IMG/VR virus record: IMGVR_UViG_3300037067_007554
Coordinates: 1 to 64,000 of that record
Source: a virus
Taxonomy: Duplodnaviria > Caudoviricetes
Direction: 5' to 3' (one strand)
DNA length: 64,000 bases
Under the pieces are notes generated by a model, which saw only the letters and a list, made by a program, of their open reading frames with translations, had not been told where the DNA came from and did not search any database. Within the stretch, counting starts at the first letter, position 1; every line of letters starts with the position of its first letter. The position numbers were made by a program, and so were the translations under genes. Of the stretch, positions 803-23,151 are shown one piece after another.

Positions 803-3226
803 CTACATCTTGGCAATGGAGTGCAATCCCTCACGTTCAAACATTTTCCACGTCTCCCGACTCTGGTCTGACGTAAACCTACCAAATCGTTCGATGTGGT
901 CTCCAGCAACGCAAAACGCCTCACTTTCGCTGAAGACTTCTGAAGGATGCCGTTCTACAGCGTAATAGGATTGGCCTAATTGCATCGCGTTCGGGTGTGC
1001 AAAAAAGGCGGCGTGTTGAAGCCAAAAGAAAGTACCAGAAAAATGCCATAAGCACGGCGGACGATCAGGTTCTGGATTGAAGTATCCGAATCTCCGAAGA
1101 CATCCAACGCATCCATAACTGTGAAGGAGTCGGTCCAACTTCGCAATCGGGATGCCTTCCAAAAGAAAACGATACATAAAATCTCGCCACCTACGCATAG
1201 CCATCTTTTTGCGACCCCATCCTGGAGCATGGTATTTCTCTGACACTCCCTTTGCGTGTGCGTAGAATGTCGCTTCAGAAAGACTGTAAGATCGCAAACT
1301 GGAAATTGCCGGCAGAAATGTCAGCGACTCCGACCGTTCTGGATGGTTCGGCGTAACAATCCATTCGATTTCGGAATCTCCAGGAAAGGCTTTTTGAACT
1401 TCCGAGATGGGCGACGTGCGATTGTCTGTAACGATTCCTACGATTCGTCGTCCGTTGAACAACTGCCAAGACTGGACAAGCCGATTGACATTTTCCTTCC
1501 ATTCTCGGTTGGATGCTACGGGATAAATGTGGTAAATCAGGTTGCGCGTTACCGCACGGGAGTGTAGTGGCTGTGAACTTTCCTGGGGAACAATACTGAC
1601 AATATCTGGAATCCACACAATAGCCCCGCTCGGATACTTTGCCAGCGTTGTACATACAAAGGCGAGGTCGCCAGCGTCCTGAGTTCCCCATGTGCCGAGC
1701 CGTTGTGGATCATTTGGCACGACAAACATCTGGGTACTCACATTGCCAACACGAACTGTCTTGTCGCGCCACAGTGTTGGCGCCCATCCTGGCCGTTCCA
1801 TCCGAAACAGCATTGGCCGTTTCGGATGTGCCTTTGCACCCCTGCGGATTCTGTCAAAGGCACCCGACGTATAGCGATCATCGTCGTCGATGAAAGCTAG
1901 ATATTCTCCACCAGCCTCTGCTATTCCGCGATTCCGCGGCGTTCCACCTATGTCCCCGTAGTGTCGGTCGAGACCAAGATACTTCCCAGGCAATCTCGAC
2001 TCCTCAAAAACGTGCCGAGTGGCTGCTTTCTCGGGTCCGTCCTGCACTAGGATGATTTCGTCGCCATCGGTAAGCTGCTGGCTGCGTATTGAATCCAGGG
2101 TCTGCTTCAGTGTCGGTCGCCCAATCGTCGGGATGATAATCGAAAGGGTCGGACCAGCGGAGTGGACATTGATCTGGGCATTTTCTGACTCCTTCTCGAA
2201 CCTGCATTTCTTAGGAAGTAATTCATCGAGCAGAGTTCGTAGATTGGACGTAAAGCCCGCCCCGTTGTAGCCCAGAAACCATCGACCCCCCAGACGACGA
2301 CGCATCTCCGAGGTAGGCAGTGCTCCCTCTATTGTTGCCTTATGCTCACCCAACGGTTGCGCATTGGCCTTAACCCAATTCAGATATAGAGTCCCGACGC
2401 ACAGCCCTGGCGGGCGCCTGTAGTCGGCCTCGTGACACACACGTACAAACGTCTTACGAAACATCGGCAGCGGGATATGCGTGTCTCCATGCCAGGTCGG
2501 GCGGCCATGGGCTGCCAAGACATTCCGCGTGTTCTCCATCCGTTTCCACCAGGTGGTCGTCCACCTCTTGCGTTCTGCCAAGTCTCCGCGGTGGTATGGA
2601 CCAAACTGCTTCCAGCCAACTGGACGCAACAAAACCTGGTCATCACTGAAGAAGACAAACCGATCGGATAACGGAGGATCAATGTGCGAGGAAACGCAAG
2701 CTACCAGCAACTTGCGGATGATGTTTACGTCCTTCATTCCGCACTTGTCGGGCATCGGCACATGGATCACCTGATCTGTGGCCACCCAAGACGGAAGGTG
2801 GCCAACGATCCATACCCGGCCTAGATTCTCGAAGTACGTGGCAACCGACCGCAACGAGTAACGCAACTCAGCATCATCGTGTTTACTACCCGTTCCGAGC
2901 GTGTAGACTACGTCGATCGTCTCGTTTTTCGGCTCCGACTTAAACTCACTGATCGGGAAAGCTGGTGTTCGTTGCACTTCTCCCGACAGCGGATCGAACT
3001 GCGGCGGGTCGGACGCATATCCAGGCTCCAGCCAGCCGACAGGAATCCACCGGCTATCCTGTTCACGCCATTCTTGCCAAAGTGCTTTCTGAACGGGAAC
3101 ATTGCCGGCTGCCGATCGCCGTGCTTTCCGCAGGGGAGGAGGTGGAACTGGTCTTCCATGCCCCACCCTTTCGGCCAATCGGCTGATGATCTTATCGAAG
3201 AGCGCCAACTCCAATTTGTCTGCCAT
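803..3226 (-). CDS. multidomain glycan enzyme: Stealth-like phosphotransferase + GT2 glycosyltransferase + C-terminal YAHAKG/FSGTFFW domain
   Basis: TIDVVYT..ELRYSLRSV and FFSDD (Stealth CR1/CR2-like); SIIIPTIGR..LAFIDDDD (GT2 DxD); start re-called at MADKLE (3226). Confidence 0.75.
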   Translation of the reverse strand: MADKLELALFDKIISRLAERVGHGRPVPPPPLRKARRSAAGNVPVQKALWQEWREQDSRWIPVGWLEPGYASDPPQFDPLSGEVQRTPAFPISEFKSEPKNETIDVVYTLGTGSKHDDAELRYSLRSVATYFENLGRVWIVGHLPSWVATDQVIHVPMPDKCGMKDVNIIRKLLVACVSSHIDPPLSDRFVFFSDDQVLLRPVGWKQFGPYHRGDLAERKRWTTTWWKRMENTRNVLAAHGRPTWHGDTHIPLPMFRKTFVRVCHEADYRRPPGLCVGTLYLNWVKANAQPLGEHKATIEGALPTSEMRRRLGGRWFLGYNGAGFTSNLRTLLDELLPKKCRFEKESENAQINVHSAGPTLSIIIPTIGRPTLKQTLDSIRSQQLTDGDEIILVQDGPEKAATRHVFEESRLPGKYLGLDRHYGDIGGTPRNRGIAEAGGEYLAFIDDDDRYTSGAFDRIRRGAKAHPKRPMLFRMERPGWAPTLWRDKTVRVGNVSTQMFVVPNDPQRLGTWGTQDAGDLAFVCTTLAKYPSGAIVWIPDIVSIVPQESSQPLHSRAVTRNLIYHIYPVASNREWKENVNRLVQSWQLFNGRRIVGIVTDNRTSPISEVQKAFPGDSEIEWIVTPNHPERSESLTFLPAISSLRSYSLSEATFYAHAKGVSEKYHAPGWGRKKMAMRRWRDFMYRFLLEGIPIAKLDRLLHSYGCVGCLRRFGYFNPEPDRPPCLWHFSGTFFWLQHAAFFAHPNAMQLGQSYYAVERHPSEVFSESEAFCVAGDHIERFGRFTSDQSRETWKMFEREGLHSIAKM

Positions 3227-3242
3227 GTTCACGGCTATTTCC

Positions 3243-4979
3243 TTAGTAAGACATACATGGAGTGGAAGCGATCTCGCCCAGGGCGCCGCCCACGGATGGC
3301 TTAAATGCCTTGCAGCCGTAGGGGCATTTTCCTGCAACATGCTGCCAGTCCGGCGTACCGCCTCCCTCCGGGAACATCCAGCACCACACCAAGAAGCCGT
3401 AACATCCAGCAGCAGACTGACAGTTGGTCGTCTCGATTTGCCCTTCGTAGGTCCCCGGAAAATTAGGCTCGACACAGATGCAACCCGAGTCGCAGAGGTC
3501 GATGGTTTTGGTCCAGTAGCCGGGCGTCCAAGACCAAGTACAGTAACCGCAAGTGCCACTGCTTGAGGCGTCGCAAAGCGACACGGTGGCTGTCCCAGTG
3601 GTATGAACGGACGGTTCGTAGGTTCCTAGCGGATTTTCCGGATCGGCCGTCTTTGTCCAGCACCAATCGGGTGAGTTGTAGTCCTCGATCCTGTAGGAAT
3701 TTACGGGGTCTCCCCTGTACTGCAATTGCCAGTAGTGCGTTCCATCCCAACGCCTGTAATAGCACCGGTACGGTTCAGCGTACCCGAGGAACGTGTATTG
3801 GCCCTTCGCCTCGGCCGGAGTGATGTCTCCGCTAACTTCGAGGCACGGCGCACATTCCTCGCTTCCGGACTCGTAGCACCATGTCGTTTCTACCTGACCT
3901 TCGTAGGTCCCATCAAAACTGGGTTGTTCGCATTCGCAATTGGAATCGCAGAGGTCGGTGTTCTTTTCCCAACTCCCCGGCGTCCAAGACCATGTGCAGT
4001 GACCGGTGCAGCCTCCGTCTGAAGACTCTTCTTGGCACAAGGAAACAAGAGCCACGCCCTCAGCATCCAATGCCGGAGAATAAACTCCGATGGGCGAGTC
4101 GGGACCGGCGGCCTTTTGCCAGTAATAATCTTCTAGTTCCCCATTAACAATCACCCAGACCTGCATTTCGTACCACCAACCGATCCACCAGTTTGTCCCA
4201 ATCTTTCTCCAAACACAGAAGCCGCGGCTGTTTAATCCACGAAGCACATACTTGCCGACGGCTTGTTCCGGAACAAGGTCTCCCGTGACCTCCAGGCAGT
4301 AGGGGCAATCGCCGGTCGATTCTTGCGACCAATCGGACTCGTCATAAGACTCCCATGTCGATTCGCTTGACTCGTCTGGACAGCACACGTAAATTCGCAC
4401 TTCGGGAGCATCGTCGATGGCAGTAATTAGACCATCAATGATCGTCAAGCGTTTTTGTGGGAAGTGGAGATGGTCGGCTACGCGGTGTGGATTGCAGACG
4501 ACGACATCCAGGTAGCCGTTATAGTTCTCTTCGCCAGCCGAAGAGCCGCCTTCGCTGCTGGTATCGCCGCTGGCGCTCTCGCTCCCTGATGAACTTTCAC
4601 TTCCAGAAGAACTCCCGCCAGAGGATTCGCCTTCGCTCGATTCTTCTCCTCCGCCCGTCTGGTAGTGGTTGTGCAGTGACCGCATCCACGTTCCGGCGCG
4701 TGCATCCTTTCGTGTCCACACGTATTGGAGTGTGTCGCCAGCAACGATGTCGGGAAGTTCCCCGCCCGTCTCCTGGACGTGGATGTCGAACGTTGGACCT
4801 CGCAGATTCACCCCAAATCTGTCGTCCATGTCCCGAGCTGCAACCCACCACTCGTCTCTACTCAGCCGATGGCTGTAGACCTCACGAACGTTGCCCATCG
4901 CCCTAGCCCAGCAGACGACGCCATGTGGTGACTCATCAAACGTCGGATTCTGGTTCGGTCCAAGCGTCAGGCCGGGCAT
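3243..4979 (-). CDS. Cys/Trp-rich repeat virion (tail) protein with Ser/Gly/Glu linker
   Basis: Follows the nozzle gene; duplicated CTWSWTPG..DLCDS.C.C modules; SSGGSSSGSESS linker; frame is open upstream to 5099, so the true start is uncertain. Confidence 0.65.
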   Translation of the reverse strand: MPGLTLGPNQNPTFDESPHGVVCWARAMGNVREVYSHRLSRDEWWVAARDMDDRFGVNLRGPTFDIHVQETGGELPDIVAGDTLQYVWTRKDARAGTWMRSLHNHYQTGGGEESSEGESSGGSSSGSESSSGSESASGDTSSEGGSSAGEENYNGYLDVVVCNPHRVADHLHFPQKRLTIIDGLITAIDDAPEVRIYVCCPDESSESTWESYDESDWSQESTGDCPYCLEVTGDLVPEQAVGKYVLRGLNSRGFCVWRKIGTNWWIGWWYEMQVWVIVNGELEDYYWQKAAGPDSPIGVYSPALDAEGVALVSLCQEESSDGGCTGHCTWSWTPGSWEKNTDLCDSNCECEQPSFDGTYEGQVETTWCYESGSEECAPCLEVSGDITPAEAKGQYTFLGYAEPYRCYYRRWDGTHYWQLQYRGDPVNSYRIEDYNSPDWCWTKTADPENPLGTYEPSVHTTGTATVSLCDASSSGTCGYCTWSWTPGYWTKTIDLCDSGCICVEPNFPGTYEGQIETTNCQSAAGCYGFLVWCWMFPEGGGTPDWQHVAGKCPYGCKAFKPSVGGALGEIASTPCMSY

Positions 4980-5123
4980 GTCTACTTCGCCACGGGTGGT
5001 CAGCTTTTGCGAGCAGTTGCCAAGGATGGTGCGAAGCACCTCCTTGAGTTGCTCAAGCGTCTGAGCACTGTCCAGGTTCTGAACTTGTTCCGTGTAGATA
5101 TGTCACCCCACTTTAGGATGCTG

Positions 5124-7514
5124 TTACGACATCCCTTCAATACCAAACTCGTAGACGCTGATTTCCTCTTCGGCCTGGAAAAAGTGCAACTCCGCCGCAA
5201 TCCAGTGTCGTCCCTGGACCCGCGGGGCGTTTCTAAAACGGAAGGGAAGGCGAGCATACCCTGGAGCATTGCCCAGGGCACTTTGGGTAGACTGAAGTTT
5301 AACCGCCGCCTTTCCATCTGCGTTGATAATCACGGGGCCATCCGTGACCCGCGCAAGAAGAGTCTCAACCGTGGTCTCGTGGTCTGGGTAGTAGTAGACA
5401 TCAACCCGCTGGTCCTCGACCGTTGGTTTGAACGTGAGCGTGATGGCCCGTTCGTCGCTCTGCTGTATCGACTGTTTGGACTCCGGCGAGAACGGAGGAA
5501 TCTCCCGGATGCCTGTCTTGTAGGTCGCTTCGATGGCTCCGATCAGATAGGTCGTTGTCGCGTCCGGCGTCGTGGTCCAATTATCAGCGACGGTCAAGGT
5601 GTGGCTACTCGCCGTAATGATCCGCCCAACCTGGCCGGCACCCGTGCCCAGGAGCAAAGCAACGGGTGCTCCGGCCAGGCTTGGGGAGAACGTCTTGCTG
5701 GAATCAACCATTGTGTTGGCGGTAGCTGAGGTAACGGTCCCCCGGATTGCGTAATGAAGGGCGTAACGGCTCGTCGTGTCCGGCGTTGTCTCCCAGACCG
5801 AAACAACAAACTGGGTAGATGAGCCAAGAGATAGAACCTCGCGAACCTGCCCAGCCCCTGTGCCACGAACGATAATTAGGTCGTAGCCAACCATCTCAGC
5901 CGTGAATGTGGCCCCAGAATCGCTCAGCGTCGTGCTGGTGGCTGCCGTGACGGACCCTTGCACAGAGACCCCATCGCTGTAGCCGTCGCTCAGAACGCAT
6001 ACACGGTCGTTCTGGCCGCCTACCAGGGTTCTCATCCGACCGAGGTGTTCTACTCGGCAGGCACCGGACATCATTTCTGGATAGGTTTCAATCCACCACG
6101 CCTTAGACCGAATCGAGTAGCAAAGAGCAGTCTTCGGCCGGATGCCAGTTTGCCCGGTCAAAGTTAGAAAGAACCGCACCACTTGCTGGACTGGCTCGAT
6201 GGCAACAAACCACCATTCCTTCTTGCCGAAGTCCACTTGCGGGTCTCGGAACACGTCCTGAATCTGGGGACCGATAACCTCAAACGTGCCATCTGCTGCG
6301 ATGGACCATGGACCGCAGGCGTCCAAAAGGTAGGCCGAATCCTCGAAGTATGCCCAGCATCGTTGGTTGATGCACCCGCGGGAAAAGCGAAGATGTACCC
6401 CGATGTCAACGGTCGGCTGCCTGACAAACGTAATCCCGTAGACATGCCGTTGTTTGAGACCCCAAAGCGTGGCCCCGTGAGGCATCAGGCCGGTCATGGA
6501 ATCGTTGTCGTCCGTGTTCTCCTGGATGACGAACACGTTTTGTGTGGCCGGTACACTCTCCGGTTCGTCCGGCTCGCTGTAAAGAACTGCGTTGTTCCAC
6601 TCTTTGGGGTCGGGGAAAATGGCATAGATTACACCAGTGACGCTGGCATCGGTGAACGCCTCCTCCAAGGTCATGCTGGTACCGCTCACGAACGTGTCGA
6701 TCGTGTATAGTTTGGACGACCCGGCAATCCAAATCTTTCGACCGGGATTGTCATCTTCCCAGTTCGTCGCAATACCGGTCAACGCTGTACTTCCGTTGGC
6801 GATGGTCACGTGACCAACCGTGTAGACGGATGGTACCGTGTAGAAGTAGCGGTCCTGAAACGGGACTACCACCCGCATAAAGTAGGGAGGCTCACCTTGC
6901 CGGCGGGCACAAAGCGTTCCATCGGAGTTGTAGATGTCCAACTGTTTATCTACAGCCATGACTCCCATGTGATCGTCGTCAAGGCCGTCCAGCAGATAGG
7001 TCGGTGTTCCAGTGTTTGCGATGGTCTTGATGAGGTAGAGTTTCGTGCTCTGGTCGCACGTCGATCGCCAGAGTTCGATGTGCGTCACTCTGGGATCGGA
7101 AACGGCACGCGGTCTTGGAATCACCGTCCAGTGGAAGTGTCCGTCGTCCTCGGCACTGACCACCGTAAGTTCCGAGAGTTCGGAGTAGGTATCGTGCGTT
7201 TCGTCCTTGTAGCGGATCGCACAGTAGTATTTCCCTTCGATGGTCCCAAGGTGATCCTCGTCGTCCTCAAGGTCGAATTCTTCGTCATAGTCCTCGTCCA
7301 TGTCTTCGGCAGTACCGCTCTGCCAACTCACCGTGGGTCCAGAGGTCGGTGCGGCGATTCCAAGGTAGTCGGGCGTGGTCTGAACGCCGTCCCAAATGGT
7401 TCCCTGGTTGATGCCGTCCTGGCGAATGAGCCTTTGGTCGCGGGTCTCGCACCAACAGGGCGGCCAAAGCGTTCGGACCCCTGTTTCTAGGGTAGGTGCT
7501 TCTCGGTCAATCAT
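5124..7514 (-). CDS. tail nozzle / packaged-DNA stabilisation protein (P22 gp10 / T7 gp12-like)
   Basis: About 800 aa, beta-rich, LYSEPDEPESVP motif, downstream of the adaptor; ATGA overlap with 7511-7708 fixes the start at 7514. Confidence 0.65.
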   Translation of the reverse strand: MIDREAPTLETGVRTLWPPCWCETRDQRLIRQDGINQGTIWDGVQTTPDYLGIAAPTSGPTVSWQSGTAEDMDEDYDEEFDLEDDEDHLGTIEGKYYCAIRYKDETHDTYSELSELTVVSAEDDGHFHWTVIPRPRAVSDPRVTHIELWRSTCDQSTKLYLIKTIANTGTPTYLLDGLDDDHMGVMAVDKQLDIYNSDGTLCARRQGEPPYFMRVVVPFQDRYFYTVPSVYTVGHVTIANGSTALTGIATNWEDDNPGRKIWIAGSSKLYTIDTFVSGTSMTLEEAFTDASVTGVIYAIFPDPKEWNNAVLYSEPDEPESVPATQNVFVIQENTDDNDSMTGLMPHGATLWGLKQRHVYGITFVRQPTVDIGVHLRFSRGCINQRCWAYFEDSAYLLDACGPWSIAADGTFEVIGPQIQDVFRDPQVDFGKKEWWFVAIEPVQQVVRFFLTLTGQTGIRPKTALCYSIRSKAWWIETYPEMMSGACRVEHLGRMRTLVGGQNDRVCVLSDGYSDGVSVQGSVTAATSTTLSDSGATFTAEMVGYDLIIVRGTGAGQVREVLSLGSSTQFVVSVWETTPDTTSRYALHYAIRGTVTSATANTMVDSSKTFSPSLAGAPVALLLGTGAGQVGRIITASSHTLTVADNWTTTPDATTTYLIGAIEATYKTGIREIPPFSPESKQSIQQSDERAITLTFKPTVEDQRVDVYYYPDHETTVETLLARVTDGPVIINADGKAAVKLQSTQSALGNAPGYARLPFRFRNAPRVQGRHWIAAELHFFQAEEEISVYEFGIEGMS

Positions 7515-7708
7515 TGGCTGGCCCTCGGCTTTTCCACCAGGATTTCCTTGATGATGAAAGTGGCGTGCTTCTTTTGGTCGCACGACGTGACATAGGGAGC
7601 ACAGCGATTGCCGGGCCGGCTGTGCGTATGTCCGCAAGCGGGACAGTCATACTCCACGGAGTTACCGTGTTTGATCCCAATGACGCAAGGTAGGAGTTCT
7701 TGGCTCAT
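7511..7708 (-). CDS. small Cys/His (CPACGH) hypothetical protein
   Basis: 4-nt overlaps with both neighbours; CxxC motif. Confidence 0.6.
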   Translation of the reverse strand: MSQELLPCVIGIKHGNSVEYDCPACGHTHSRPGNRCAPYVTSCDQKKHATFIIKEILVEKPRASQ

Positions 7709-7998
7709 GTCGGGTTCCTACCGTAGTGAACAGTCCCCTCGCTGTCCAGAAAGACGCAGTAGTCCGCCTCGGGACGCCTGAAGATCGTTAAGGCGATGAT
7801 GTCTGGCAGCGTCGTGATGTCGGCGACCGTACCGCCTCCCCGTGCCGTCGCGTTGTCAAGCCAGACTTCACGGCATCCGGCCCGGCCGGTTAGCTTGCCG
7901 GCTGAGAGCGACATGCAATTCTCCTGGACAGTCGCCCCAGGATTGTCGTGCGGGTCCGCATCGCTTATGAGGCCCATCCACTGAGGAGTGCTAGCCAT
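7705..7998 (-). CDS. small virion-associated hypothetical protein
   Basis: In-operon ORF directly after the adaptor; WMGLISDADPHDNPG motif. Confidence 0.65.
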   Translation of the reverse strand: MASTPQWMGLISDADPHDNPGATVQENCMSLSAGKLTGRAGCREVWLDNATARGGGTVADITTLPDIIALTIFRRPEADYCVFLDSEGTVHYGRNPT

Positions 7999-8000
7999 GC

Positions 8001-14855: not shown

Positions 14856-15092
14856 TCAGTATTGGACCCCAACGAGAATCCACACAGGAGACGCCATCGT
14901 GCCCGTATTGATGTACAAGTCCGTGTTGCTATAGTCGAAACAGAGCGAGCATGGACCGCACCTGCCGGCTCCCGTGCCTGTAGTGCCGTCCGTCGGGGCA
15001 CCGGCGTTGGGGATGAAGATGATGTCAACCTGAATCAGGTCAGCCATCATGTCGAGAACTTTTTGTCGAATCAGCGCCGTGACTGGAGGCAT
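14856..15092 (-). CDS. small virion protein
   Basis: AGGAG RBS; GAPTDGTTGTGAG..LYINTGT.ASPVW motif typical of small phage structural proteins. Confidence 0.6.
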   Translation of the reverse strand: MPPVTALIRQKVLDMMADLIQVDIIFIPNAGAPTDGTTGTGAGRCGPCSLCFDYSNTDLYINTGTMASPVWILVGVQY

Positions 15093-15104
15093 CGGTCTCT
15101 CCTT

Positions 15105-15659: not shown

Positions 15660-15663
15660 GGGT

Positions 15664-16005
15664 TTACATCTCGACGTAGGTTCCGGTGACCGAGCCGGCG
15701 ATTCCACTGTTGGCAATCTGAAGGGCCGCCCCAACCGCTGTCACAAACCATCCACGGGGAGCATGAGGGGCTGTGTGAACGGTAGTTCCGGCCGCCTGAA
15801 GGTAGATCAACCCCGAGATGTCCACGGCATCGCCAGCCGGCTTGGATTGCCACTTGTAGGTCCCGTTTGTGGCGGACGACATGATGTAAGACAAGACGCA
15901 AATCTTCTTGCCGGAGACGGCCGCCACAATAGTCTTCGGGTTGTCGCCCGACCCAATTGCCACGGCAAACGTCTTCACGGCATGGGTCTTAATGAGGTCT
16001 TCCAT
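15664..16005 (-). CDS. hypothetical virion protein
   Basis: GAGGAAG RBS before ATG 16005; beta-rich; directly after the portal. Confidence 0.6.
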   Translation of the reverse strand: MEDLIKTHAVKTFAVAIGSGDNPKTIVAAVSGKKICVLSYIMSSATNGTYKWQSKPAGDAVDISGLIYLQAAGTTVHTAPHAPRGWFVTAVGAALQIANSGIAGSVTGTYVEM

Positions 16006-16021: not shown

Positions 16022-18364
16022 TTATGCCTTCGCCGCTCCGTTGCTTGGAGCCTTGGCTTTCTGTTTTGCCAGCCGCAACTGCAACTGGCCCTGTTGTGCC
16101 TTCTGAATCGTGTCAAGGTACTTCTGTTGCAGGTCAAGGCTTCCCTCGGAAACCTTGCGCAGCATTTCCGCCCGGTGGGCCTCCATGTCCTGTTGCATCT
16201 TCTGACCAAACTGAGCACCACGTTGTGCCTGCTCTGCCTCGAACGCCGCCTGTTGCTGCTGCAACTCGGTCTGGGCCCGCTGTTGCTCCTGCTGCATCTC
16301 CAGTTGCTTAGCCTGGAATTCTGGGTTCTGAGTCGGGTCGGGCGGCTGCTGCGGTTGCGGCGGCTTGAGCATCAGCCCGTCCATCTTCATCCCGTTGACC
16401 TTGCCGAAGAGTTGCTGCAAAGCATTGATAGTGGACGTGTCCCCGCTGGCAGCAGCGTACTGCTGGTGAATCGGACCGAAGACCTGGATAAAGTTGCGGA
16501 GACTCTCGGCGTCCCGGTCGTTGTCTGGCCGGGCCATGCTGCTGGCCTCCACGGCGTAGTCGATTTGTCGAAGAACCCGCTCTCCAGGCTGGCTCTTGAC
16601 GTAGCGACCCCATAGTTGGGCACCCGTATTTCCGAGGATGTCCGCAAGGTCTTCGGGGGTGCAAGAGTACCACAGCCCGTAGCTTTCCTTGCGGGCCAGT
16701 TCGGTCTGGCAGGCAGCCACTCGCCGAGCCATGTCCTGGGGACGGATTGCCGTGTTGGCCTGGCGAACCTTCACGTCGGTCGCCGAGCGGGATGCTGGGC
16801 CTTGCATCCCATAAAGAATCTCGCTCAGACCAACACGACGGTCGAACATCTCCATCAAGGCGTCGAGAATTTTCCACACGTCGTAGTTGACAGGTGGATG
16901 CGTCAGGAACTGGACCACCTTACTGAGATCGTCCTGAAGGCTCTCTAGGCCGAAGATGGCGAAGTCCTTGCCACGTTCCAAAGCCTTCTGCACTTCTTCC
17001 TTGGCACTCTCCAGAACCCCGGTGAGCGTGCGGCTGGACATCCACACATGATGGCAGAGTGAGCAAAGGAAGATGTTGATCGCCTTCAGTTCACCCAATC
17101 CGGGGGCCAACGGGGGCAACGGCCATGGGTAGCGAGTCCGCTGGTACACGTCCAAAAACGTCACCGGGAACTTGCCCTCTGTCCAGAACGGTATCGGCCA
17201 ACTCAGTCGGGACTTGACCTCGGCGACCGTGCCCTGCTGGAGAACCCAGTCAGGGCAATTCAAGAGGTAGGGAATGCCGGGGGCCACGACCATGTAAACG
17301 TAGTCGCCGGTCGCTGATTCAAGGGCTCGCTGAGTCGCCGTGGGAAGATCCAAGCCACGGATACCGACGCCCTCGCGGGAATAGAATTCCCAGTAGCGGA
17401 TCATGTCCTTGGCCTCGCCGGTCTGCTGCCGGTTGTTGGCCGTATTGGCAGACATGGCCCAAGCGGTCCCCTGAGAATTCCCGCTCTGATAACTGGAGGC
17501 GTTTTTCAGTACGCCCTCGGGGAAGAGTTTGAACTTCCGCTCGACTTCCCAGTAGGGGGCATATCTCTCAACGGCAACCCAATGGGCATTCTTCGCGTTC
17601 TCGCAGTCCGGGTCGATAAACACCCGGTCGGGCGTCTCGTAGAAACTGCCCACAAGCAGTTTGTTGGAGCCCGGATGCCGGTACGGCTCCGTGATGAACA
17701 CGCCACGGCCCTTGACCAACAGGTCCGTGATGGCACGGTCGGAATGGTCGTGCAACTCCAGGAGGTCCGGCGTATGGTTGAGAATTCGGGCCTGGAGTTG
17801 AGCCGACATATTCCGCTGGAGCGACTCTTGCTGAAACTCCGACAAGGCTTGCTGGTACTGAGAGGCCGCCTGCTGTTGCTGCTGAAGGATCGCCATGGCC
17901 TGCTGTTGCATCGCCATGGCCTGTTGGCGTTGCAGCGGGTCGCCCTGCTGCAACATGCCAGCGGCCTGTTGTTGCATCGCCTGGGCTTGCTGTTGCTGGT
18001 CGGCCATTACGCCGAAGACCTCGGGGGGGATTTCCACAAAGTCCCGCGGCTTCGCTGTCCTGGTCGGGTTCGCCCAATAGAGCGTCGGACCGAAGAGGGC
18101 GACCAACTCGAAGGCTCTCGCACACGTAATCTGGAACTGGGGCTCGATGGCCCCGTTCGTGGTATTCCAGAAACGCCACCGATTCTCCGGCCTCCACAAG
18201 AACCCCGACACGGCCGAATAGAAGAAGTCACACTCGTCGGCCACGTCCTGCCACGGCTTTTTGTGCAGGCGGGCACGCTCAATCTTGCCCTCGATAGCCT
18301 GGCACAAGCCCCGCAGTGGGTTGTCGGTTTCCGCGTAGGGAACCATCGGTGGAATCATGGTCAT
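16022..18364 (-). CDS. portal protein
   Basis: 780 aa, near terL; podovirus-portal-like layout with Q-rich C-terminal helix; ATGA overlap with the upstream gene. Confidence 0.8.
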   Translation of the reverse strand: MTMIPPMVPYAETDNPLRGLCQAIEGKIERARLHKKPWQDVADECDFFYSAVSGFLWRPENRWRFWNTTNGAIEPQFQITCARAFELVALFGPTLYWANPTRTAKPRDFVEIPPEVFGVMADQQQQAQAMQQQAAGMLQQGDPLQRQQAMAMQQQAMAILQQQQQAASQYQQALSEFQQESLQRNMSAQLQARILNHTPDLLELHDHSDRAITDLLVKGRGVFITEPYRHPGSNKLLVGSFYETPDRVFIDPDCENAKNAHWVAVERYAPYWEVERKFKLFPEGVLKNASSYQSGNSQGTAWAMSANTANNRQQTGEAKDMIRYWEFYSREGVGIRGLDLPTATQRALESATGDYVYMVVAPGIPYLLNCPDWVLQQGTVAEVKSRLSWPIPFWTEGKFPVTFLDVYQRTRYPWPLPPLAPGLGELKAINIFLCSLCHHVWMSSRTLTGVLESAKEEVQKALERGKDFAIFGLESLQDDLSKVVQFLTHPPVNYDVWKILDALMEMFDRRVGLSEILYGMQGPASRSATDVKVRQANTAIRPQDMARRVAACQTELARKESYGLWYSCTPEDLADILGNTGAQLWGRYVKSQPGERVLRQIDYAVEASSMARPDNDRDAESLRNFIQVFGPIHQQYAAASGDTSTINALQQLFGKVNGMKMDGLMLKPPQPQQPPDPTQNPEFQAKQLEMQQEQQRAQTELQQQQAAFEAEQAQRGAQFGQKMQQDMEAHRAEMLRKVSEGSLDLQQKYLDTIQKAQQGQLQLRLAKQKAKAPSNGAAKA

Positions 18365-18883: not shown

Positions 18884-20668
18884 TTAGTTTCTGGCCGGTA
18901 CTCCCGGTCCAGGTCCGAGAATCAGGGTTTCGCCTTGACGGCGACTTTTCTCATCGCTCATCAGGTGTCGAATCGCGTCGGAAATAGAATCGTCCGGGCC
19001 AGACGGTCCGGTCGGCTTGTGGTAACGGCTCTGTGGGTCATGGGCGAAATACTCCAAACAGTTCATTGCGTGGTTGTGTTCATCAACCGGGTCTTCTCTC
19101 GCCTCTTCGTGGTGCAACACCCGCTTGTACATCTCGAATTCATCTTCCATGTACGGAAGGGCCGAACGGTTGTCGTCGGAGTTGCTGCGAAGGATGCGAA
19201 ACTTCGGAGTCCCGTCGTCCCGTAATCCAAGCCAAGTGCGAACCATGGTGCATCGCCCCTGAATGTTCGTACTTCCACGGCGGAAGCTGGACCCCGTAGT
19301 CGCACTGCGGACTCCTCGCCTTTTGAATTCGTCTATGAATTGCTGAACCTGTGTCTTGCCTGTGGCCTGGTCGTGTTTTCTTCCATGTTGGAAGTCCATC
19401 CCAAAAGCGTGGAATCGGTTTCCTTGCGCCTTCATGGCAATTGCTTCAACAACTCGGACGACGGTGTAACCGCAGAGATGCAGTTCGTCGTAGGCGACTA
19501 CGCAATCTCCGATTTCCGGCGGCGAGACGGCGAAGAACACAACGGCCGTGACCGTGTAACCCGGGTCAATCCACATGAACCTGGCCCAGTCATCGGGAAT
19601 CTTCCTGGTTCGCAGGAACCAGTCGATCTTCCCCTGGTACGCCTGCCGGTCCAGAGACTTTGGGTCAGAGACGTTGGGAATGCCATGCACGTCCATCGAG
19701 AACTCGGGATACATCTTGATGGCATCCATGCCAAAATCGCCCATGTCTCTGGACCGGACCACATCTTCTCCCTGAGTTGCCCAGAGTCGAATCGTCTTCA
19801 GTTTGTCGGCCTGCGAAACGTACTCATTATGCGAGAACCGCATCCGAAACTCTTCGACATCGGGGTCGGGCTGCCCCGCCTGGTTGGAAGCCTCCTTGCA
19901 GAGCTTCTGCAAAACGCTGTTTTTGGTCTTCGGCCACACGCTCCAGATGATCTTCCCGCCCCGGGTCGCGGTGCGAGCCATCAACTCGCTAATCATCTTG
20001 CGGTCTTGTTTGAGGTCTTCGTCGATCACGGCCAGGTCTACCGAGTCACCCATCGGAGGCTCGCTACCGGAGCAGAACGTGCGGATTTCCGAGCCGTTCT
20101 TCAGTCGGCATACCTTGAAGATTCGAGGCCCCTTGCTGACCCACGAGAAGCCACCTCCACCCGTTTTACCGTCCCCTTTAATTTCCTCCTTGGGAATTAA
20201 CGGAGGAGCCGGAATTCGTTCTTTTTTGCGGGCCGCGTCCGATGGGTCGTTTGGTTTCCAGGTTCGGTACTTACCAGTGGCAAGGTCCCGAATGATCCAG
20301 ACCTCATCTCCACAGCCAGGCTTGAAAAGTGTTCGGTATAGAGTTCGCCCGATGTTGTCTTGCTCGAAAACTATCATCCACACGATGATGGCCTGGTCAG
20401 ACGGATACTTCTTGTGCGGGTCAAGTCGGCGAACGGCACGAGCAACTTCCTGACACACCGCGTAGGTCTTTCCACTTCGATTCCCGGCGCGAATAATTCG
20501 CACGCTCGCCTTGCTCCGGTGGAACGCTTCCTGGGCAGGCATCGGAGAATACAGACGCACCGAGTCCATCTGGCGACGGTCCAACTCTTCAGTCGAAAGC
20601 TGGACCCGCTTCCGGGCCTCTTCCGCCGCCCGCTGGGCTTCACGTAGAGTTTTCTGGGGGTCGATCAT
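18884..20668 (-). CDS. terL: terminase large subunit
   Basis: Walker A AGNRSGKT, Walker B LAVIDED, RNase H-like nuclease WIDPG..DELH..HAMNCLEY. Confidence 0.92.
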   Translation of the reverse strand: MIDPQKTLREAQRAAEEARKRVQLSTEELDRRQMDSVRLYSPMPAQEAFHRSKASVRIIRAGNRSGKTYAVCQEVARAVRRLDPHKKYPSDQAIIVWMIVFEQDNIGRTLYRTLFKPGCGDEVWIIRDLATGKYRTWKPNDPSDAARKKERIPAPPLIPKEEIKGDGKTGGGGFSWVSKGPRIFKVCRLKNGSEIRTFCSGSEPPMGDSVDLAVIDEDLKQDRKMISELMARTATRGGKIIWSVWPKTKNSVLQKLCKEASNQAGQPDPDVEEFRMRFSHNEYVSQADKLKTIRLWATQGEDVVRSRDMGDFGMDAIKMYPEFSMDVHGIPNVSDPKSLDRQAYQGKIDWFLRTRKIPDDWARFMWIDPGYTVTAVVFFAVSPPEIGDCVVAYDELHLCGYTVVRVVEAIAMKAQGNRFHAFGMDFQHGRKHDQATGKTQVQQFIDEFKRRGVRSATTGSSFRRGSTNIQGRCTMVRTWLGLRDDGTPKFRILRSNSDDNRSALPYMEDEFEMYKRVLHHEEAREDPVDEHNHAMNCLEYFAHDPQSRYHKPTGPSGPDDSISDAIRHLMSDEKSRRQGETLILGPGPGVPARN

Positions 20669-21323
20669 CCTCGACCTCTAGCCTCTTGGGTTCATTCGTC
20701 TCGGATTCTTTGGCCTCAGCAATCACCTCACGCAACATCGGAAACGTCTCAAGAACCTGGGCGATGGCGATGGTTTTCAGGTCCTCCACCATCCGCAACT
20801 TGATTTCCTCGTCCGTCTGGTTTAACAGGTCCGGGGTCTCCTGAATCATCGGGTGAGCGGCGGCCATCATCTTGGATACGGCGTAAAGGGCGTCCAGAAC
20901 GACCTTCCCGCCCGGCTTGTTGATCGCAGCCTCCTCGATCTGTGACCAGTGAAAGGCGGCGAGCATTTCCACTCCGCCCGCCTCTTCCACCAACGCTGTG
21001 ACATAGTTGACGAACTTCGGTGCAGAAGACCCGGTGTTGTCTCGGACCAGCCGTACCAGCTCCTCCATTCGATCCTTGGCCGCCGTAAGCCTGCTGGCTT
21101 CTGCGGCATCGACTCGACACCGAATCAGGCATTCCGAGCAAACGTACCAATCCTTGCCACCAGAAGGATGGCTGTGGTGAAAGTCCGACTCCAAGTGGTA
21201 CCGATGGCAGCAAGGACATTCCTTGGTCTGTACATCAGGTTCCGCTGGATACAGACACACCTGCTCCGTTCTCGGATGCAGAAACGTCGGTTCCTGCTGT
21301 TGCTCGACCGTTGTGATTTCCAT
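20640..21323 (-). CDS. putative terminase small subunit (N-terminal Zn finger, helical C-terminus)
   Basis: Immediately upstream of and overlapping terL; CPCC..CSEC motif; assignment is positional. Confidence 0.45.
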   Translation of the reverse strand: MEITTVEQQQEPTFLHPRTEQVCLYPAEPDVQTKECPCCHRYHLESDFHHSHPSGGKDWYVCSECLIRCRVDAAEASRLTAAKDRMEELVRLVRDNTGSSAPKFVNYVTALVEEAGGVEMLAAFHWSQIEEAAINKPGGKVVLDALYAVSKMMAAAHPMIQETPDLLNQTDEEIKLRMVEDLKTIAIAQVLETFPMLREVIAEAKESETNEPKRLEVEDDRPPENST

Positions 21324-23151
21324 TGGTTCTCAGAATGTGTCCCTCGCCGTCCATCGTGACCCACCAAATCGCTCCCTTGGTCTTGAGGCACGTCCGTGGA
21401 AACGATTCATCTACCGCCCGCTCCACGCCCGGCAGGAACGACATGCCGTAGTCGTGACCGCAGAGGATACCGCCCTTACGGACCAACGGGGCCCATGCGA
21501 GGATGTCAGCCTTCACCGATTCGTAGGAGTGGTCGGCGTCGATGAAGATGAGGTCAAAAAGAGCCAAGTCGCCCGGTCTCAACGCTGTTAGGGCTTGCGC
21601 AACCGTCAAGCTCTGGTTTCGATGTGGCAAGATGGTTCTGTTCAGCCGATCCCCGACGTTCTGGCAGAACGCCCGGTATAGCGAGTCCGGTCCGTAGTTC
21701 CGTGCCCACGGGCCAGTCATGTCCGACACACTGCCCTCCCACGTATCGACGCACCGGATGATTGCATCGGGCGCTGCTTCGGCCATCGCCAGGGCCGACT
21801 GCCCTAGCCAGGAACCAACCTCGACGATTCGCTTGGCATCAATCTCTCGAACCAATCCAGCGAGCACATCGAGGTCTTCCTGGCAGGTCACGTGGCCGAT
21901 GAAGGTGCGGCCACCCTCTTCCCAGACGGGCGGGACGGTCGGGTCGGCAGACTCTTCCGCTAGTCGGTCGTACTCCGCGGAGAACTGCTTCAGTGAACCA
22001 AAATCCTTGCGGAGCCTGTTCAGAAGGGTCTGCTCCTCGGGATCGCAAGGCGGTGACTGCATCTGCTGAGCGGCCATGGCCTCGGCTGCTGACCGCACCG
22101 GCCTCGGTCTGTTCAGGGTGTTCTCGATCTCCTTTGGAGAGAGCATTGCTGGCGGCTGAAGAGTTTCGGCTTTCATTGCCTCTCTCTGCTTCGCCACCGC
22201 CGCCTGTACCTCGGCCATCACCTCCTCGGCGGACTTCTCGGGATGCAGTTCAACGAGCCGAACCTTCTCACTGTTTTTGGCCAATACCGCTTTGACGTAA
22301 TCCTTGTTGATGCCCTCGACCGTTGGCAGGATGGGCTTCCCAACAATTTCGATCTTCGCGTGCCCGCACCAAGCCCACCAATTGCAGTAGACCTTGGTGC
22401 CAGCCAGCGTGGCATTGCGGGTAAAGTACACGTCCTCCGTACTCGCTTTGATGGTGTTGTACGGCGAGTCGGCCCACTCGTAGTCGAACCACGGAGGCGG
22501 CAGAGGGTGCCAGCCTTGCTTCTCACACTTCCGGCCCCAATCCTGCCACGCGGGCGTACCTTCCTCGGGAACGGGATGTCCGATGGCCCGCATGTCGATG
22601 AGGATAAGACCCGTGCATCCTGCGGGAAGACACTCAAATCCGACTCGCTCCGCCGCCTCGGTCCGACTGAAAATCTTCAGCTCAACAGCTTCTTTCTGTT
22701 GTCTGGTGTTTCCAGCATTTGACCAGTGAAAGGCATAGGGGATTTCCTCTCCACCCATGATCGGATGCGGGGGCGGTCCGCAGTACGGACAGTACACGAT
22801 GCACGGCCCGCGGTCGTAGTGCTCGACGAAGAAGTCGAAACTCGACTTCCAAAAGGGTTTGGCGAGCGGATCGAAACCGAGATAGAGGTCCGGCACGGTG
22901 TCGGAGTCGATCATCACCAACACGTCCACACCCTTGTCCAGGGCAGCCTTGAGAGCCCCGTTGCGGGTCATGGTGAGAGGGGTGTCGGCCTCCGTGTACT
23001 TGAAGAGAGTTGGTTCACAACGAGGGTCTTTGTGGACCTCCAGCGTGAAGCCGGCAAGCCAGTCGCCGACCTTGGGGGACTCCGACTGTAAAGACCCATT
23101 CCCGCCGTAAGGAAAGCGACATACGCCACACTTAAACCGTCTTGGAATCAT
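21235..23151 (-). CDS. GT-A (GT2-like) glycosyltransferase fused to a SAM methyltransferase
   Basis: VLVMIDSD, GCTGLILID, STEDVYF..CGH in the N-half; VEVGSWLGQS, LIFIDADHSY, GGILCGHDY in the C-half; GGAG RBS before ATG 23151. Confidence 0.8.
   Translation of the reverse strand: MIPRRFKCGVCRFPYGGNGSLQSESPKVGDWLAGFTLEVHKDPRCEPTLFKYTEADTPLTMTRNGALKAALDKGVDVLVMIDSDTVPDLYLGFDPLAKPFWKSSFDFFVEHYDRGPCIVYCPYCGPPPHPIMGGEEIPYAFHWSNAGNTRQQKEAVELKIFSRTEAAERVGFECLPAGCTGLILIDMRAIGHPVPEEGTPAWQDWGRKCEKQGWHPLPPPWFDYEWADSPYNTIKASTEDVYFTRNATLAGTKVYCNWWAWCGHAKIEIVGKPILPTVEGINKDYVKAVLAKNSEKVRLVELHPEKSAEEVMAEVQAAVAKQREAMKAETLQPPAMLSPKEIENTLNRPRPVRSAAEAMAAQQMQSPPCDPEEQTLLNRLRKDFGSLKQFSAEYDRLAEESADPTVPPVWEEGGRTFIGHVTCQEDLDVLAGLVREIDAKRIVEVGSWLGQSALAMAEAAPDAIIRCVDTWEGSVSDMTGPWARNYGPDSLYRAFCQNVGDRLNRTILPHRNQSLTVAQALTALRPGDLALFDLIFIDADHSYESVKADILAWAPLVRKGGILCGHDYGMSFLPGVERAVDESFPRTCLKTKGAIWWVTMDGEGHILRTNGNHNGRATAGTDVSASENGAGVSVSSGT

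What the first reader, a model, noticed from the sequence alone, without database searches (positions are those of the whole stretch)
803..23151. Eight-gene glycosylation and glycan-tailoring system embedded in the virion morphogenesis operon
Seen: GT-A+MTase (21235), MTase (14293), GT2 (13520), pyruvyl transferase (12666), MTase (12094), GT-B (11141), FrhB-GT4 (9210) and Stealth-GT2-X (803). They are co-oriented with capsid, terminase, portal, adaptor and nozzle genes, and most are coupled to neighbours by short overlaps. That gives five GT domains, three MTase domains, one pyruvyl transferase, one oxidoreductase and one phosphotransferase. No nucleotide-sugar synthesis genes are present in the window. 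Established: some mycobacteriophages glycosylate capsid and tail proteins with their own GTs, and Mimiviridae build pyruvylated or methylated fibril glycans. Inference: this phage builds a complex methylated and pyruvylated glycan on its virion (late expression), using host sugar nucleotides. Possible acceptors are the Ser-rich linker of the 3243 protein or the Thr-rich fibre at 53536. Modification of host surface or DNA is less likely given the late-operon position.
Basis: partly seen in the sequence, partly recalled or inferred. Interest (0 to 1): 0.8.

Follow-up and report, generated by a model that had tools for sequence, protein, structure and literature searches.

The report
Phage glycan-building genes among virion genes
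An uncultured 90-kb phage, probably of planctomycete bacteria, carries eight soluble sugar-adding and sugar-tailoring enzymes inside its particle-building operon, most likely to coat its own particle with a decorated glycan; this kind of cassette recurs in phages, and no experiment has shown its target here.

Summary
Eight co-oriented genes (A 21235-23151, B 14293-14832, C 13520-14296, D 12666-13526, E 12094-12654, F 11141-12097, G 9210-11144, H 803-3232) sit at three places in one 26-kb minus-strand operon. That operon also holds the capsid, a probable capsid decoration protein, terminase, portal and a fibre-like gene.

Domain calls were verified by Pfam, fold prediction and motifs:
- Catalytic motifs are intact.
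- None of the eight has a membrane segment.
- The unknown 'X' domain of H has a GT-A fold, giving six GT-fold domains rather than five.
- 'Stealth' is only a distant relative of that family.
- Adaptor and nozzle genes were not verified, and the '53536 fibre' is not Thr-rich.

No SDR epimerase/dehydratase, sugar nucleotidyltransferase, priming transferase or base hydroxymethylase occurs in the 89.5-kb record.

Two distant relatives keep parts of the layout: capsid-decoration-GT-A-terminase-portal in one, and a Stealth+X enzyme in the structural operon in the other.

Best reading (about 0.55): cytoplasmic glycosylation of virion proteins, analogous but not homologous to Che8/Corndog. Host-envelope modification remains a rival.

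This scan has noted similar cassettes on other DNA many times.

The parts
21235..23151 (-). Gene A, 638 aa: N-terminal GT-A-like glycosyltransferase (about residues 1-300, DSD motif) joined to a C-terminal Methyltransf_24 class I SAM methyltransferase (about 420-600).
   Evidence: Pfam Methyltransf_24 1.4e-17. PDB O-methyltransferases 3tr6 and 8c9v. Atlas GT-A-like phage clusters, often fused to methyltransferases. Stand-alone homolog in L007 with MxDSDT conserved.
14293..14832 (-). Gene B, 179 aa: Methyltransf_24 methyltransferase.
   Evidence: Pfam 3.5e-14. 32% identical to the methyltransferase domain of A. Overlaps C by 4 nt.
13520..14296 (-). Gene C, 258 aa: GT2 glycosyltransferase with a DDDD (DXD) motif.
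   Evidence: Pfam GT2 3.9e-11. Six-frame hit. Motif.
12666..13526 (-). Gene D, 286 aa: polysaccharide pyruvyl transferase-like.
   Evidence: Pfam PF04230 31.8 bits against a cut-off of 25.3, profile 148-274/280. In GenBank phages, homologs only in Lak megaphages and one huge uncultured phage, 22-24% identity. No PDB sequence match.
12094..12654 (-). Gene E, 186 aa: Methyltransf_24 methyltransferase.
   Evidence: Pfam 2.1e-18. Six-frame hit.
11141..12097 (-). Gene F, 318 aa: CgeB-like GT-B glycosyltransferase (Glyco_trans_1_2-like), partner of G.
   Evidence: No Pfam or PDB sequence hit. Atlas features 0.96 and TM 0.74-0.79 to PF13524 clusters. F+GT4 adjacency in the unrelated phage contig L004. 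PF13524+GT4 fusion P0026.
9210..11144 (-). Gene G, 644 aa: FrhB-like flavin/Fe-S oxidoreductase domain (1-265) fused to a GT4 glycosyltransferase (about 285-640, EX7E).
   Evidence: Pfam FrhB_N 1.3e-15, FrhB_C 1.4e-10, Glycos_transf_1 5e-23. The same fusion at 60% identity in P0010. The GT4 alone at about 60% in many contigs, including a Thermoguttaceae MAG.
803..3232 (-). Gene H, 809 aa, three modules: Stealth-like sugar-1-phosphate transferase core (about 100-350), GT2 (about 360-550) and the GT-A-fold 'X' domain (about 560-800, FYAHAKG motif).
   Evidence: Pfam GT2 3e-13 and Stealth_CR2 below threshold. GNPTAB alignment with ELRYSLRS conserved. X model pLDDT 94.7, GT-A fold Z 11.1. Modules occur alone and shuffled in 3238 representatives at E<=1e-10.
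24078..25190 (-). Major capsid protein.
   Evidence: phrog_9953 1.6e-13. Seven homologs of 367-370 aa. Highest GC3 of the operon together with g23382.
23382..24014 (-). g23382, 210 aa: probable capsid decoration (cement) protein; candidate acceptor of A.
   Evidence: Conserved directly after the capsid gene in L006, L007 and L008. Low-confidence model (pLDDT 56). Its best PDB matches are all phage capsid decoration proteins: Z 8.0-8.3, rmsd 3.1-3.6, 105-123 residues.
23290..23324 (-). Terminator-like hairpin (11-12 bp stem, 7-nt loop, T5) between g23382 and gene A; possible attenuator.
   Evidence: Sequence and RNA fold.
18884..20668 (-). Large terminase subunit.
   Evidence: phrog_2 8e-10. 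39% identical homolog in L007.
16022..18364 (-). Portal protein.
   Evidence: phrog_1216 2.7e-6. Homologs in L007 (37%), L002 and L021.
14856..16005 (-). Three small genes that fill the space between the portal gene and B: 113 aa (15664-16005), 184 aa (15105-15659), 78 aa (14856-15092).
   Evidence: Sequence reading and gaps of 4-23 nt. The 113-aa protein has two tandem homologs in L007.
7705..9206 (-). g8001 (401 aa) and g7705 (97 aa): unknown, probably virion proteins, coupled to G by 3 and 2 nt.
   Evidence: Gaps. g8001-like segment after the portal gene in L021, in a protein that also bears a fibre N-terminal domain.
5124..7637 (-). Fibre-like protein, 837 aa as the longest ORF.
   Evidence: Weak PHROG tail-fibre N-terminal domain matches at residues 270-342 (phrog_1980, 6.7e-5).
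3243..5039 (-). g3243, 598 aa: unknown protein with a Ser/Gly/Glu-rich linker at about residues 131-170; candidate acceptor of H. It ends 10 nt before H.
   Evidence: Composition scan. Gap. No Pfam, PHROG or PDB match.

Best explanation
This is a phage-encoded cytoplasmic protein-glycosylation system that is co-expressed with the virion genes. The eight enzymes are soluble. They most likely use host nucleotide sugars, PEP and SAM to build and tailor glycans on virion proteins before or during assembly.

Shown here: the genes, their domains, intact catalytic motifs, absence of membrane segments, operon coupling, and conservation of parts of the layout in distant relatives.

Inferred, in three modules:
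1. Gene A (GT-A + O-methyltransferase-like) sits after the capsid gene, the probable decoration-protein gene and an attenuator-like hairpin. It would act on the head surface.
2. The B-G block after the portal gene (two methyltransferases, GT2, pyruvyl transferase, CgeB-like GT-B, FrhB-GT4) would extend and tailor a glycan with methyl and pyruvyl-derived groups.
3. Gene H (Stealth-like sugar-1-phosphate transferase + GT2 + GT-A-fold domain) sits 10 nt after a protein with a Ser/Gly/Glu-rich linker. It would start or extend a possibly phosphodiester-linked glycan on that linker.

The benefit (shielding, stability or adsorption) is unknown.
For: Genes and position:
- Domain calls and motifs.
- All GT2 and Methyltransf_24 hits of the 89.5-kb record lie in the structural operon.
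- Overlaps or gaps of at most 23 nt run from the portal gene through B-G to g7705.

What is absent:
- No 19-residue window above Kyte-Doolittle 1.6 in seven of the eight. The one in D (1.94) is read by eye as a buried helix of the pyruvyl-transferase fold, not a membrane segment.
- No Bac_transf priming enzyme.
- No epimerase/dehydratase or NTP_transferase.

Relatives:
- L007 (31-39% identity) keeps capsid, g23382, GT-A, a small gene, TerL and portal in order.
- L021 has TerL, portal, a fibre-domain protein, a head-tail adaptor and then Stealth+X on one strand.
- In 16 viral records with a phrog_2 TerL, the X-domain gene is on the same strand in 15, and 8-24 kb downstream in 12. Here it is about 18 kb downstream.

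Links between the enzymes:
- Natural fusions join them: CgeB-like+GT4 (P0026), and Stealth+GT2+X+Methyltransf_24 (P0076).

Candidate acceptors:
- g23382 resembles capsid decoration proteins.
- (Ser-Gly)n or poly-Ser proteins lie 0.3-4.6 kb upstream of X-domain genes, on the same strand, in at least 7 of 39 viral loci.

Precedents:
- Corndog has an O-methyltransferase and three GTs between its portal and protease genes (PMC4351075).
- Che8, Corndog and Myrna virions are glycosylated (PMC12363180).
- PBCV-1 A064R is a GT-GT-methyltransferase acting on the capsid glycan; Mimivirus has a fibril cluster with pyruvyl and methyl transferases (PMC9614988).
Against: - No direct evidence that any virion protein is modified.
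- Position in an operon does not show timing or target. The capsid-glycosylating GT genes of PBCV-1 are in fact expressed early (PMC9614988).
- Soluble GTs also act on lipid-linked intermediates at the inner face of the membrane.
- There is no BLAST-level homology to Che8 gp108-110 or Corndog gp35-38.
- The capsid protein shows no extra tail compared with its relatives: all are 367-370 aa.
- The g23382 model is of low confidence (pLDDT 56).
- The Ser-tract association has only a crude internal control.
- H has a lower GC3 (0.56) than the rest of the operon, as expected of a recently gained end-of-operon gene.
- A serine recombinase gene leaves lysogeny open, and with it expression of such a gene from a prophage.
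Confidence: 0.55

Rival explanations
1. The enzymes remodel host cell-envelope glycans (lipid-linked precursors, capsule, holdfast or glycoprotein layer) in the infected or lysogenic cell. This could mask receptors against superinfection, ease release, or change the surface of a lysogen.
For: - The closest named relatives of the GT4, GT2, Stealth and pyruvyl transferase domains are polysaccharide enzymes.
- Pyruvyl transferases are typical capsule-tailoring enzymes (PMC4616057).
- The GT4 is 60% identical to a gene in a Thermoguttaceae genome and in other PVC-group MAGs.
- H lies at the very end of the operon and has a deviating GC3.
- A serine recombinase is present.
Against: - No flippase, polymerase, priming transferase or membrane-spanning Gtr-type component was found, and none of the eight enzymes has a membrane segment.
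- Seven of the eight genes are chained to virion genes by overlaps or very short gaps rather than having their own promoter.
- The GT-A gene next to the capsid genes, and the Stealth+X gene in a structural operon, are conserved in distant relatives.
Confidence: 0.25
2. The cassette is a mosaic of acquired genes with separate or unknown targets (small molecules, a free polysaccharide or other phage proteins), not one system. Some members may be decaying.
For: - The genes lie at three separate sites.
- The modules are highly mobile and shuffled among thousands of proteins.
- Only A has a counterpart in the one relative long enough to compare (L007).
- D matches only half of its Pfam profile.
Against: - All frames are open and the catalytic motifs are intact.
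- B to G are coupled by 4-7 nt overlaps or short gaps.
- Natural fusions link F-like with GT4 domains, and Stealth/GT2/X with Methyltransf_24.
Confidence: 0.12
3. The glycosyltransferases hypermodify phage DNA (glycosylated hydroxymethyl bases) to evade restriction.
For: - Phage GTs are known to glycosylate DNA (cited in PMC12619734).
- PHROG labels the Methyltransf_24 family as 'DNA methyltransferase'.
Against: - No thymidylate-synthase-like hydroxymethylase in the record.
- The genes lie in the structural module, not the replication module.
- The methyltransferase domains match O-methyltransferases in PDB and Pfam.
- Pyruvyl and sugar-phosphate transferases have no known DNA role (my knowledge).
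Confidence: 0.04

Closest known systems
Mycobacteriophage virion glycosylation (Che8 gp108-110; Corndog gp35-38; Myrna), Freeman et al. 2023 as summarised in PMC12363180 and PMC4351075
   Same: Phage-encoded soluble GTs, and in Corndog an O-methyltransferase, are placed within or directly upstream of the terminase-portal-capsid operon. [quoted passage not shown] Che8 gp108-110 lie just upstream of TerS, as gene A does here.
   Different: There is no detectable sequence homology. This system has eight genes and about twelve catalytic domains, including a pyruvyl transferase, an FrhB-like oxidoreductase and a Stealth-like phosphotransferase. The host phylum differs. The C-terminal capsid extension reported as acceptor in the mycobacteriophages is not seen here.
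Chlorovirus PBCV-1 A064R (GT-A + GT + methyltransferase, 638 aa) and A061L, which build the methylated end of the capsid N-glycan (PMC9614988)
   Same: Gene A is also a GT-A domain followed by a class I SAM methyltransferase in one soluble 638-aa protein. Extra stand-alone methyltransferases are present (B and E, compared with A061L).
   Different: The PDB sequence search with gene A returned only O-methyltransferases. Gene A lacks the middle GT domain. The virus and host domain of life differ.
Mimivirus (Megavirinae) fibril glycosylation clusters with GTs, a putative pyruvyl transferase (L143) and methyltransferases (PMC9614988, PMC10117803)
   Same: A virus-encoded cluster combines several GTs with pyruvyl and methyl transferases to decorate the virion surface.
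   Different: Giant viruses also encode the nucleotide-sugar pathways, which are absent here. No homology was tested or claimed.
Stealth family hexose-1-phosphate transferases (GNPTAB, PDB 7s6n; bacterial capsule polymerases)
   Same: Residues about 87-216 of H align to the GNPTAB catalytic core with ELRYSLRS, PSW and F..DD conserved.
   Different: Only CR2 is detected, and below Pfam's cut-off. CR1, CR3 and CR4 are not detected. The module is a compact domain of about 250 aa fused to two GT-A-fold domains, and it is a member of a large, mostly unnamed family.
Phage seroconversion systems (GtrABC type)
   Same: Phage-borne glycosyltransferases.
   Different: Those need membrane proteins and act from a prophage. 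Here no enzyme has a membrane segment, and the genes lie among the virion genes.

Membership tests
Phage virion glycosylation systems (Che8/Corndog type) | Phage-encoded GTs located with, and co-oriented to, virion structural genes | tested here: met
   Compared with Corndog and Che8 maps.
Phage virion glycosylation systems (Che8/Corndog type) | Sequence homology to Che8 gp108-110 or Corndog gp35-38 | tested here: not met
   tblastn gave only a 41-residue DXD-region match, E 0.001.
Phage virion glycosylation systems (Che8/Corndog type) | Glycans demonstrated on capsid or tail proteins | not testable with these tools
   Needs purified virions or co-expression followed by mass spectrometry.
Stealth (Pfam CR1-CR4) | CR2 above the gathering score | tested here: not met
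   32.1 bits against 39.4. The region is nevertheless homologous to the GNPTAB core, E 2.8e-4, with ELRYSLRS conserved.
Stealth (Pfam CR1-CR4) | CR1, CR3 and CR4 present | tested here: not met
   No six-frame match at E<=1 for PF17101, PF17102 or PF17103. By eye, a DVVYT motif resembles CR1 (recalled consensus).
Polysaccharide pyruvyl transferase (PF04230) | Match above Pfam's gathering score | tested here: met
   31.8 against 25.3 bits, covering only profile 148-274/280. No PDB sequence match.
FrhB/FdhB beta-subunit family | Both N- and C-terminal Pfam domains above their cut-offs | tested here: met
   57.7 and 41.7 bits. Cofactor binding is not testable here.
GT4 (GT-B, retaining) | Glycos_transf_1 domain with the EX7E motif | tested here: met
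   81.8 bits. EGFSMGMLE motif.
GT2 (GT-A) | Glycos_transf_2 domain with a DXD motif (C and the middle module of H) | tested here: met
GT-A fold superfamily (N-terminal part of A, X domain of H) | Nucleotide-diphospho-sugar transferase fold | tested here: met
   X: pLDDT 94.7; GlcAT-P Z 11.1, rmsd 4.0, 180 aligned; all 50 listed rows are GT-A enzymes or sugar nucleotidyltransferases. X has no DXD motif, so transferase versus nucleotidyltransferase stays open. A N-terminal part: Atlas models only, plus a conserved DSD motif.
CgeB-like GT-B (PF13524) for F | Pfam match or fold match | tested here: inconclusive
   No Pfam hit at E<=0.01. Atlas features 0.96 and TM 0.74-0.79 to PF13524 clusters. 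Fusion P0026 carries PF13524.
Methyltransf_24 (class I SAM methyltransferases) | Pfam match above cut-off with a SAM-binding glycine motif | tested here: met
   Three domains at 54-68 bits. Motifs. Substrate (sugar O-methylation) is inferred.
GtrABC-type seroconversion | Membrane-embedded flippase and transferases | tested here: not met
   No hydrophobic segment consistent with a membrane helix in the eight enzymes.
Phage DNA glycosylation | Hydroxymethylase (thymidylate synthase family) that makes the acceptor base | tested here: not met
   No PF00303 match in the record. The record is about 87% complete.

The most novel reading that the evidence does not exclude
The phage performs protein phosphoglycosylation. 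The Stealth-like module of H puts a sugar-1-phosphate on serines of the acidic Ser/Gly-rich linker of g3243, a chemistry known so far, to my knowledge, only from protists. The two GT-A-fold modules of H extend the chain. The B-G block adds methyl groups and a pyruvate-derived group. Its FrhB-like flavoprotein reduces an enolpyruvyl ether to a lactyl (carboxyethyl) ether in a MurA/MurB-like pair of steps, which would be an unassigned enzymology for carboxyethyl sugars.
Probability: 0.1. Interest if true: 0.85.

Novelty: new variant of a known kind. Interest (0 to 1): 0.55.

Why it matters
Virion glycosylation by a phage's own enzymes has been shown only for a few mycobacteriophages, where it affects antibody recognition, and for giant viruses. 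This record would extend it to a very different phage, probably of Planctomycetota, with a much richer tool set: six GT-fold domains, three methyltransferases, a pyruvyl transferase, a flavin/Fe-S oxidoreductase and a sugar-phosphate transferase.

It offers concrete enzyme-acceptor pairs that can be tested by co-expression: A with g23382 or the capsid protein, and H with g3243. The H modules belong to a family with thousands of uncharacterised members, so one biochemical result would annotate many phage genes.

The finding is not unique. This scan has logged many GT/methyltransferase and Stealth-like cassettes in phage structural operons on other DNA.

Tried and rejected
Searches that found nothing:
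- Megablast of 24 kb against GenBank phages: no match.
- Single-protein pattern scans of viral contigs with TerL and with the N-terminal part of A: nothing.
- Capsid alignment against viral contigs: nothing.
- PDB sequence searches for the fibre, g8001, g3243, F and D: nothing meaningful.
- NCBIfam: only generic sub-threshold GT hits.
- PHROGs for the distal minus-strand genes and for Ser-tract proteins of other loci: no names.

Tools and papers not available:
The contexts of the closest capsid and FrhB-GT4 homologs (P0005, P0010) could therefore not be read.
- The Freeman 2023 paper is not held. It is cited through PMC12363180 and PMC4351075.

Ideas rejected or left open:
- I first took L007 to lack the B-G block. 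That was wrong: L007 ends just after homologs of the 113-aa gene that precedes the block here, so it is uninformative.
- A promoter of the kind seen before the HNH genes (TTTACA-17-TAGAAT plus hairpin) was looked for between g23382 and A. It was not found; only a terminator-like hairpin is there.
- The Stealth-like gp6 and the Methyltransf_24 gp93 of Cluster K mycobacteriophages are a lead, not evidence. Those phages are not known to me to be glycosylated.
- A link between FrhB-like genes and pyruvyl transferases in capsule loci could not be documented from the library.

Full report
**Origin.** The window is bases 1-64000 of an IMG/VR virus record of 89,507 bp. The record is linear and CheckV estimates it as 87% complete. 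It has no near relative among GenBank phages.

**Operon anatomy.**
- A minus-strand chain of genes runs from about 26.6 kb down to 0.8 kb.
- PHROGs names the major head protein (24078-25190, 1.6e-13), TerL (18884-20668, 8e-10), the portal (16022-18364, 2.7e-6) and a tail-fibre N-terminal domain inside 5124-7637.
- Reading the apparent gaps after the portal gene showed three more small genes.
- From the portal gene to g7705, every junction is an overlap or a gap of at most 23 nt.
- The junctions are B-C -4, C-D -7, D-E +11, E-F -4, F-G -4, G-g8001 +3 and g8001-g7705 +2. H starts 10 nt after g3243.
- The only structured intergenic element is a terminator-like hairpin with a T5 run at 23290-23324. 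It lies between the capsid/g23382 pair and gene A.
- That position would fit attenuation of the enzyme and packaging genes relative to the abundant head proteins. The head genes also have the highest GC3 of the operon, 0.83-0.86.

**Domain calls by Pfam.**
- G: FrhB_N and FrhB_C joined to a GT4.
- C and the middle of H: GT2.
- B, E and the C-terminal part of A: Methyltransf_24.
- D: polysaccharide pyruvyl transferase, above the cut-off but matching only the second half of the profile.
- H: Stealth_CR2, below the cut-off.

**Calls without Pfam support.**
- F: the ESM Atlas places it with CgeB-like Glyco_trans_1_2 proteins, mostly viral (features 0.96, TM 0.74-0.79).
- F also has a 41%-identical homolog next to a 55%-identical GT4 in an unrelated phage contig (L004).
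- A 721-aa protein fuses PF13524 to this GT4 (P0026).
- A, N-terminal part: it resembles GT-A-like phage proteins that are often fused to methyltransferases.
- A stand-alone 312-aa homolog in L007 conserves MxDSDT and STEDV.

**The 'X' domain of H.**
- It folded with pLDDT 94.7 from a 22-sequence alignment.
- It has a nucleotide-diphospho-sugar transferase (GT-A) fold. The best match is human GlcAT-P (Z 11.1, rmsd 4.0, 180 residues).
- All 50 listed rows are GT-A glycosyltransferases or sugar-1-phosphate nucleotidyltransferases.
- It has no DXD motif, and its conserved signature is FYAHAKG. Whether it is a sixth GT or a nucleotidyltransferase stays open.

**The Stealth-like module of H.**
- It aligns with the GNPTAB catalytic core and keeps ELRYSLRS, PSW and F..DD.
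- The Pfam models for CR1, CR3 and CR4 find nothing.
- It is therefore a distant, compact relative, not a canonical family member.

**Integrity and what is missing.**
- Catalytic motifs are intact throughout. None of the eight has a segment consistent with a membrane helix.
- The whole record lacks an SDR epimerase/dehydratase, an NTP_transferase, a Bac_transf priming enzyme and a thymidylate-synthase-like hydroxymethylase.
- About 13% of the genome may be missing, so these absences are not final.

**Relatives of this phage.**
- They are rare. Seven capsid homologs exist, on short contigs.
- L007, a 10.4-kb metagenome contig at 31-39% identity, keeps the order capsid, g23382 homolog, stand-alone GT-A, small gene, TerL, portal.
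- The GT-A gene beside the head genes is therefore conserved over large divergence.
- L007 ends before the place where B-G would lie.
- g23382 always follows the capsid gene in these contigs.
- Its model is of low confidence. Even so, its nine best PDB matches are all phage capsid decoration or cement proteins, the top five at Z 8.0-8.3.
- It is probably a decoration protein and a natural candidate acceptor for A.

**The family of H.**
- H has 3238 representative relatives at E<=1e-10. Its three modules occur alone or shuffled, together with Methyltransf_24, Methyltransf_11 and GT32-like domains.
- Sixty viral contigs carry the X domain.
- In the 16 records where phrog_2 finds a TerL, the X-domain gene is on the same strand in 15, and 8-24 kb downstream in 12. 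In this window it is about 18 kb downstream.
- In L021 the order is TerL, portal, a protein with g8001-like and fibre N-terminal segments, a head-tail adaptor (phrog_195, 4e-11), four unknown genes, then a Stealth+X enzyme.
- (Ser-Gly)n or poly-Ser proteins lie upstream on the same strand within 0.3-4.6 kb of the X-domain gene in L030, L041/L044, L037, L046, L033 and L055.
- That parallels g3243, whose residues 131-170 are almost only Ser, Gly and Glu. The control for this association is crude: near zone against far zone within the same loci.

**Rarity in sequenced phages.** Among 50,697 GenBank phage records:
- D has homologs only in Lak megaphages and one huge uncultured phage.
- The FrhB domain has homologs only in two gut contigs.
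- F has none.

**Host lead.**
- The GT4 is 60% identical to a gene of a Thermoguttaceae MAG, and similar genes are named from Phycisphaerae, Pirellulales and Opitutae MAGs.
- This agrees with the earlier suggestion of a planctomycete host.

**Comparison with what is known.**
- Corndog carries an O-methyltransferase, two GTs and a GlcNAc-transferase between its portal and protease genes. These were found in infected cells but not in virions (PMC4351075).
- Che8, Corndog and Myrna virions are glycosylated (PMC12363180).
- Che8 gp108-110 lie just upstream of TerS across the genome end.
- None of these enzymes is detectably homologous to the ones here. The resemblance is one of design.
- PBCV-1 A064R (GT-A, GT, methyltransferase; 638 aa) with A061L, and the Mimivirus fibril cluster with a putative pyruvyl transferase, are the nearest functional analogues for methylated and pyruvylated virion glycans (PMC9614988).

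**Verdict.**
- Glycosylation of virion proteins is the best-supported mechanism, at about 0.55, but it is inferred and not shown.
- Host-envelope remodelling is the main rival (0.25). DNA modification is unlikely.
- The class is known, and this scan has found it repeatedly on other DNA.
- The size of the system and the pyruvyl transferase plus FrhB-like oxidoreductase make it a new variant of a known kind.

Noticed in passing
window 23290-23324 (-): Strong terminator-like hairpin (CCGCGGCTGAC / GTTAGCCGCGG, 7-nt loop, T5) about 60 nt after the stop of g23382 and about 140 nt before gene A. It may attenuate read-through from the capsid genes. The built-in terminator scan did not list it.
   Followed up: partly
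It could be a real repeat protein or a frame artefact over a repeat.
   Followed up: partly
L016 7506-13737 (Thermoguttaceae MAG JAXGXG010000001.1): The 60%-identical GT4 homolog and a neighbouring ORF are flanked by two inverted ORFs of exactly 482 aa (7506-8954 on the minus strand, 12289-13737 on the plus strand). The arrangement looks like a composite transposon carrying glycosyltransferase genes.
   Followed up: no
L011 1286-1972 and L012 6647-7222 (Mycobacterium phage Cheetobro NC_028979): Mycobacteriophages of Cheetobro's group (subfamily Weiservirinae; Cluster K from memory) carry an unannotated Stealth-like gene (gp6, 32% identical to H residues 106-274) just upstream of TerS. They also carry a Methyltransf_24 gene labelled 'DNA methyltransferase' (gp93) at the right genome end. 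These may be glycan enzymes and may be misannotated.
   Followed up: partly
L017 10765-11691 (-) = record 74765-75691, outside the window: A 308-aa protein matches Pfam Gad1 (Gabija anti-defence 1; 30.8 bits, cut-off 27). It lies next to an HNH endonuclease and near RecT/YqaJ recombination genes.
   Followed up: no
window 52468-53568 (+): Serine recombinase (Resolvase N-terminal domain, 3.3e-16). The phage may be temperate, or the enzyme may have another role.
   Followed up: no
window 15664-16005 (-); L007 9573-9911 and 9925-10251: The 113-aa protein encoded right after the portal gene has two tandem homologs (49% and 45% identity) in the distant relative L007. It is a conserved small gene of unknown role in the head/neck region.
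   Followed up: partly
window 803-3232 (-): H has a clearly lower GC (0.533) and GC3 (0.556) than the rest of the operon (GC3 0.59-0.86). This suggests more recent acquisition.
   Followed up: partly
L030 6544-7665; L041 and L044 6740-7687; L055 2312-3412; L033 3461-4924; L037 4506-5909; L046 3009-6169: Unrelated viral contigs encode proteins with long (Ser-Gly)n or poly-Ser tracts (up to 28 Ser in 30 residues) upstream of, and co-oriented with, an X-domain gene. None has a PHROG name.
   Followed up: partly
window 37003-37093 (+): ARAGORN reports a 91-nt tRNA-like gene with an undetermined four-base anticodon.
   Followed up: no
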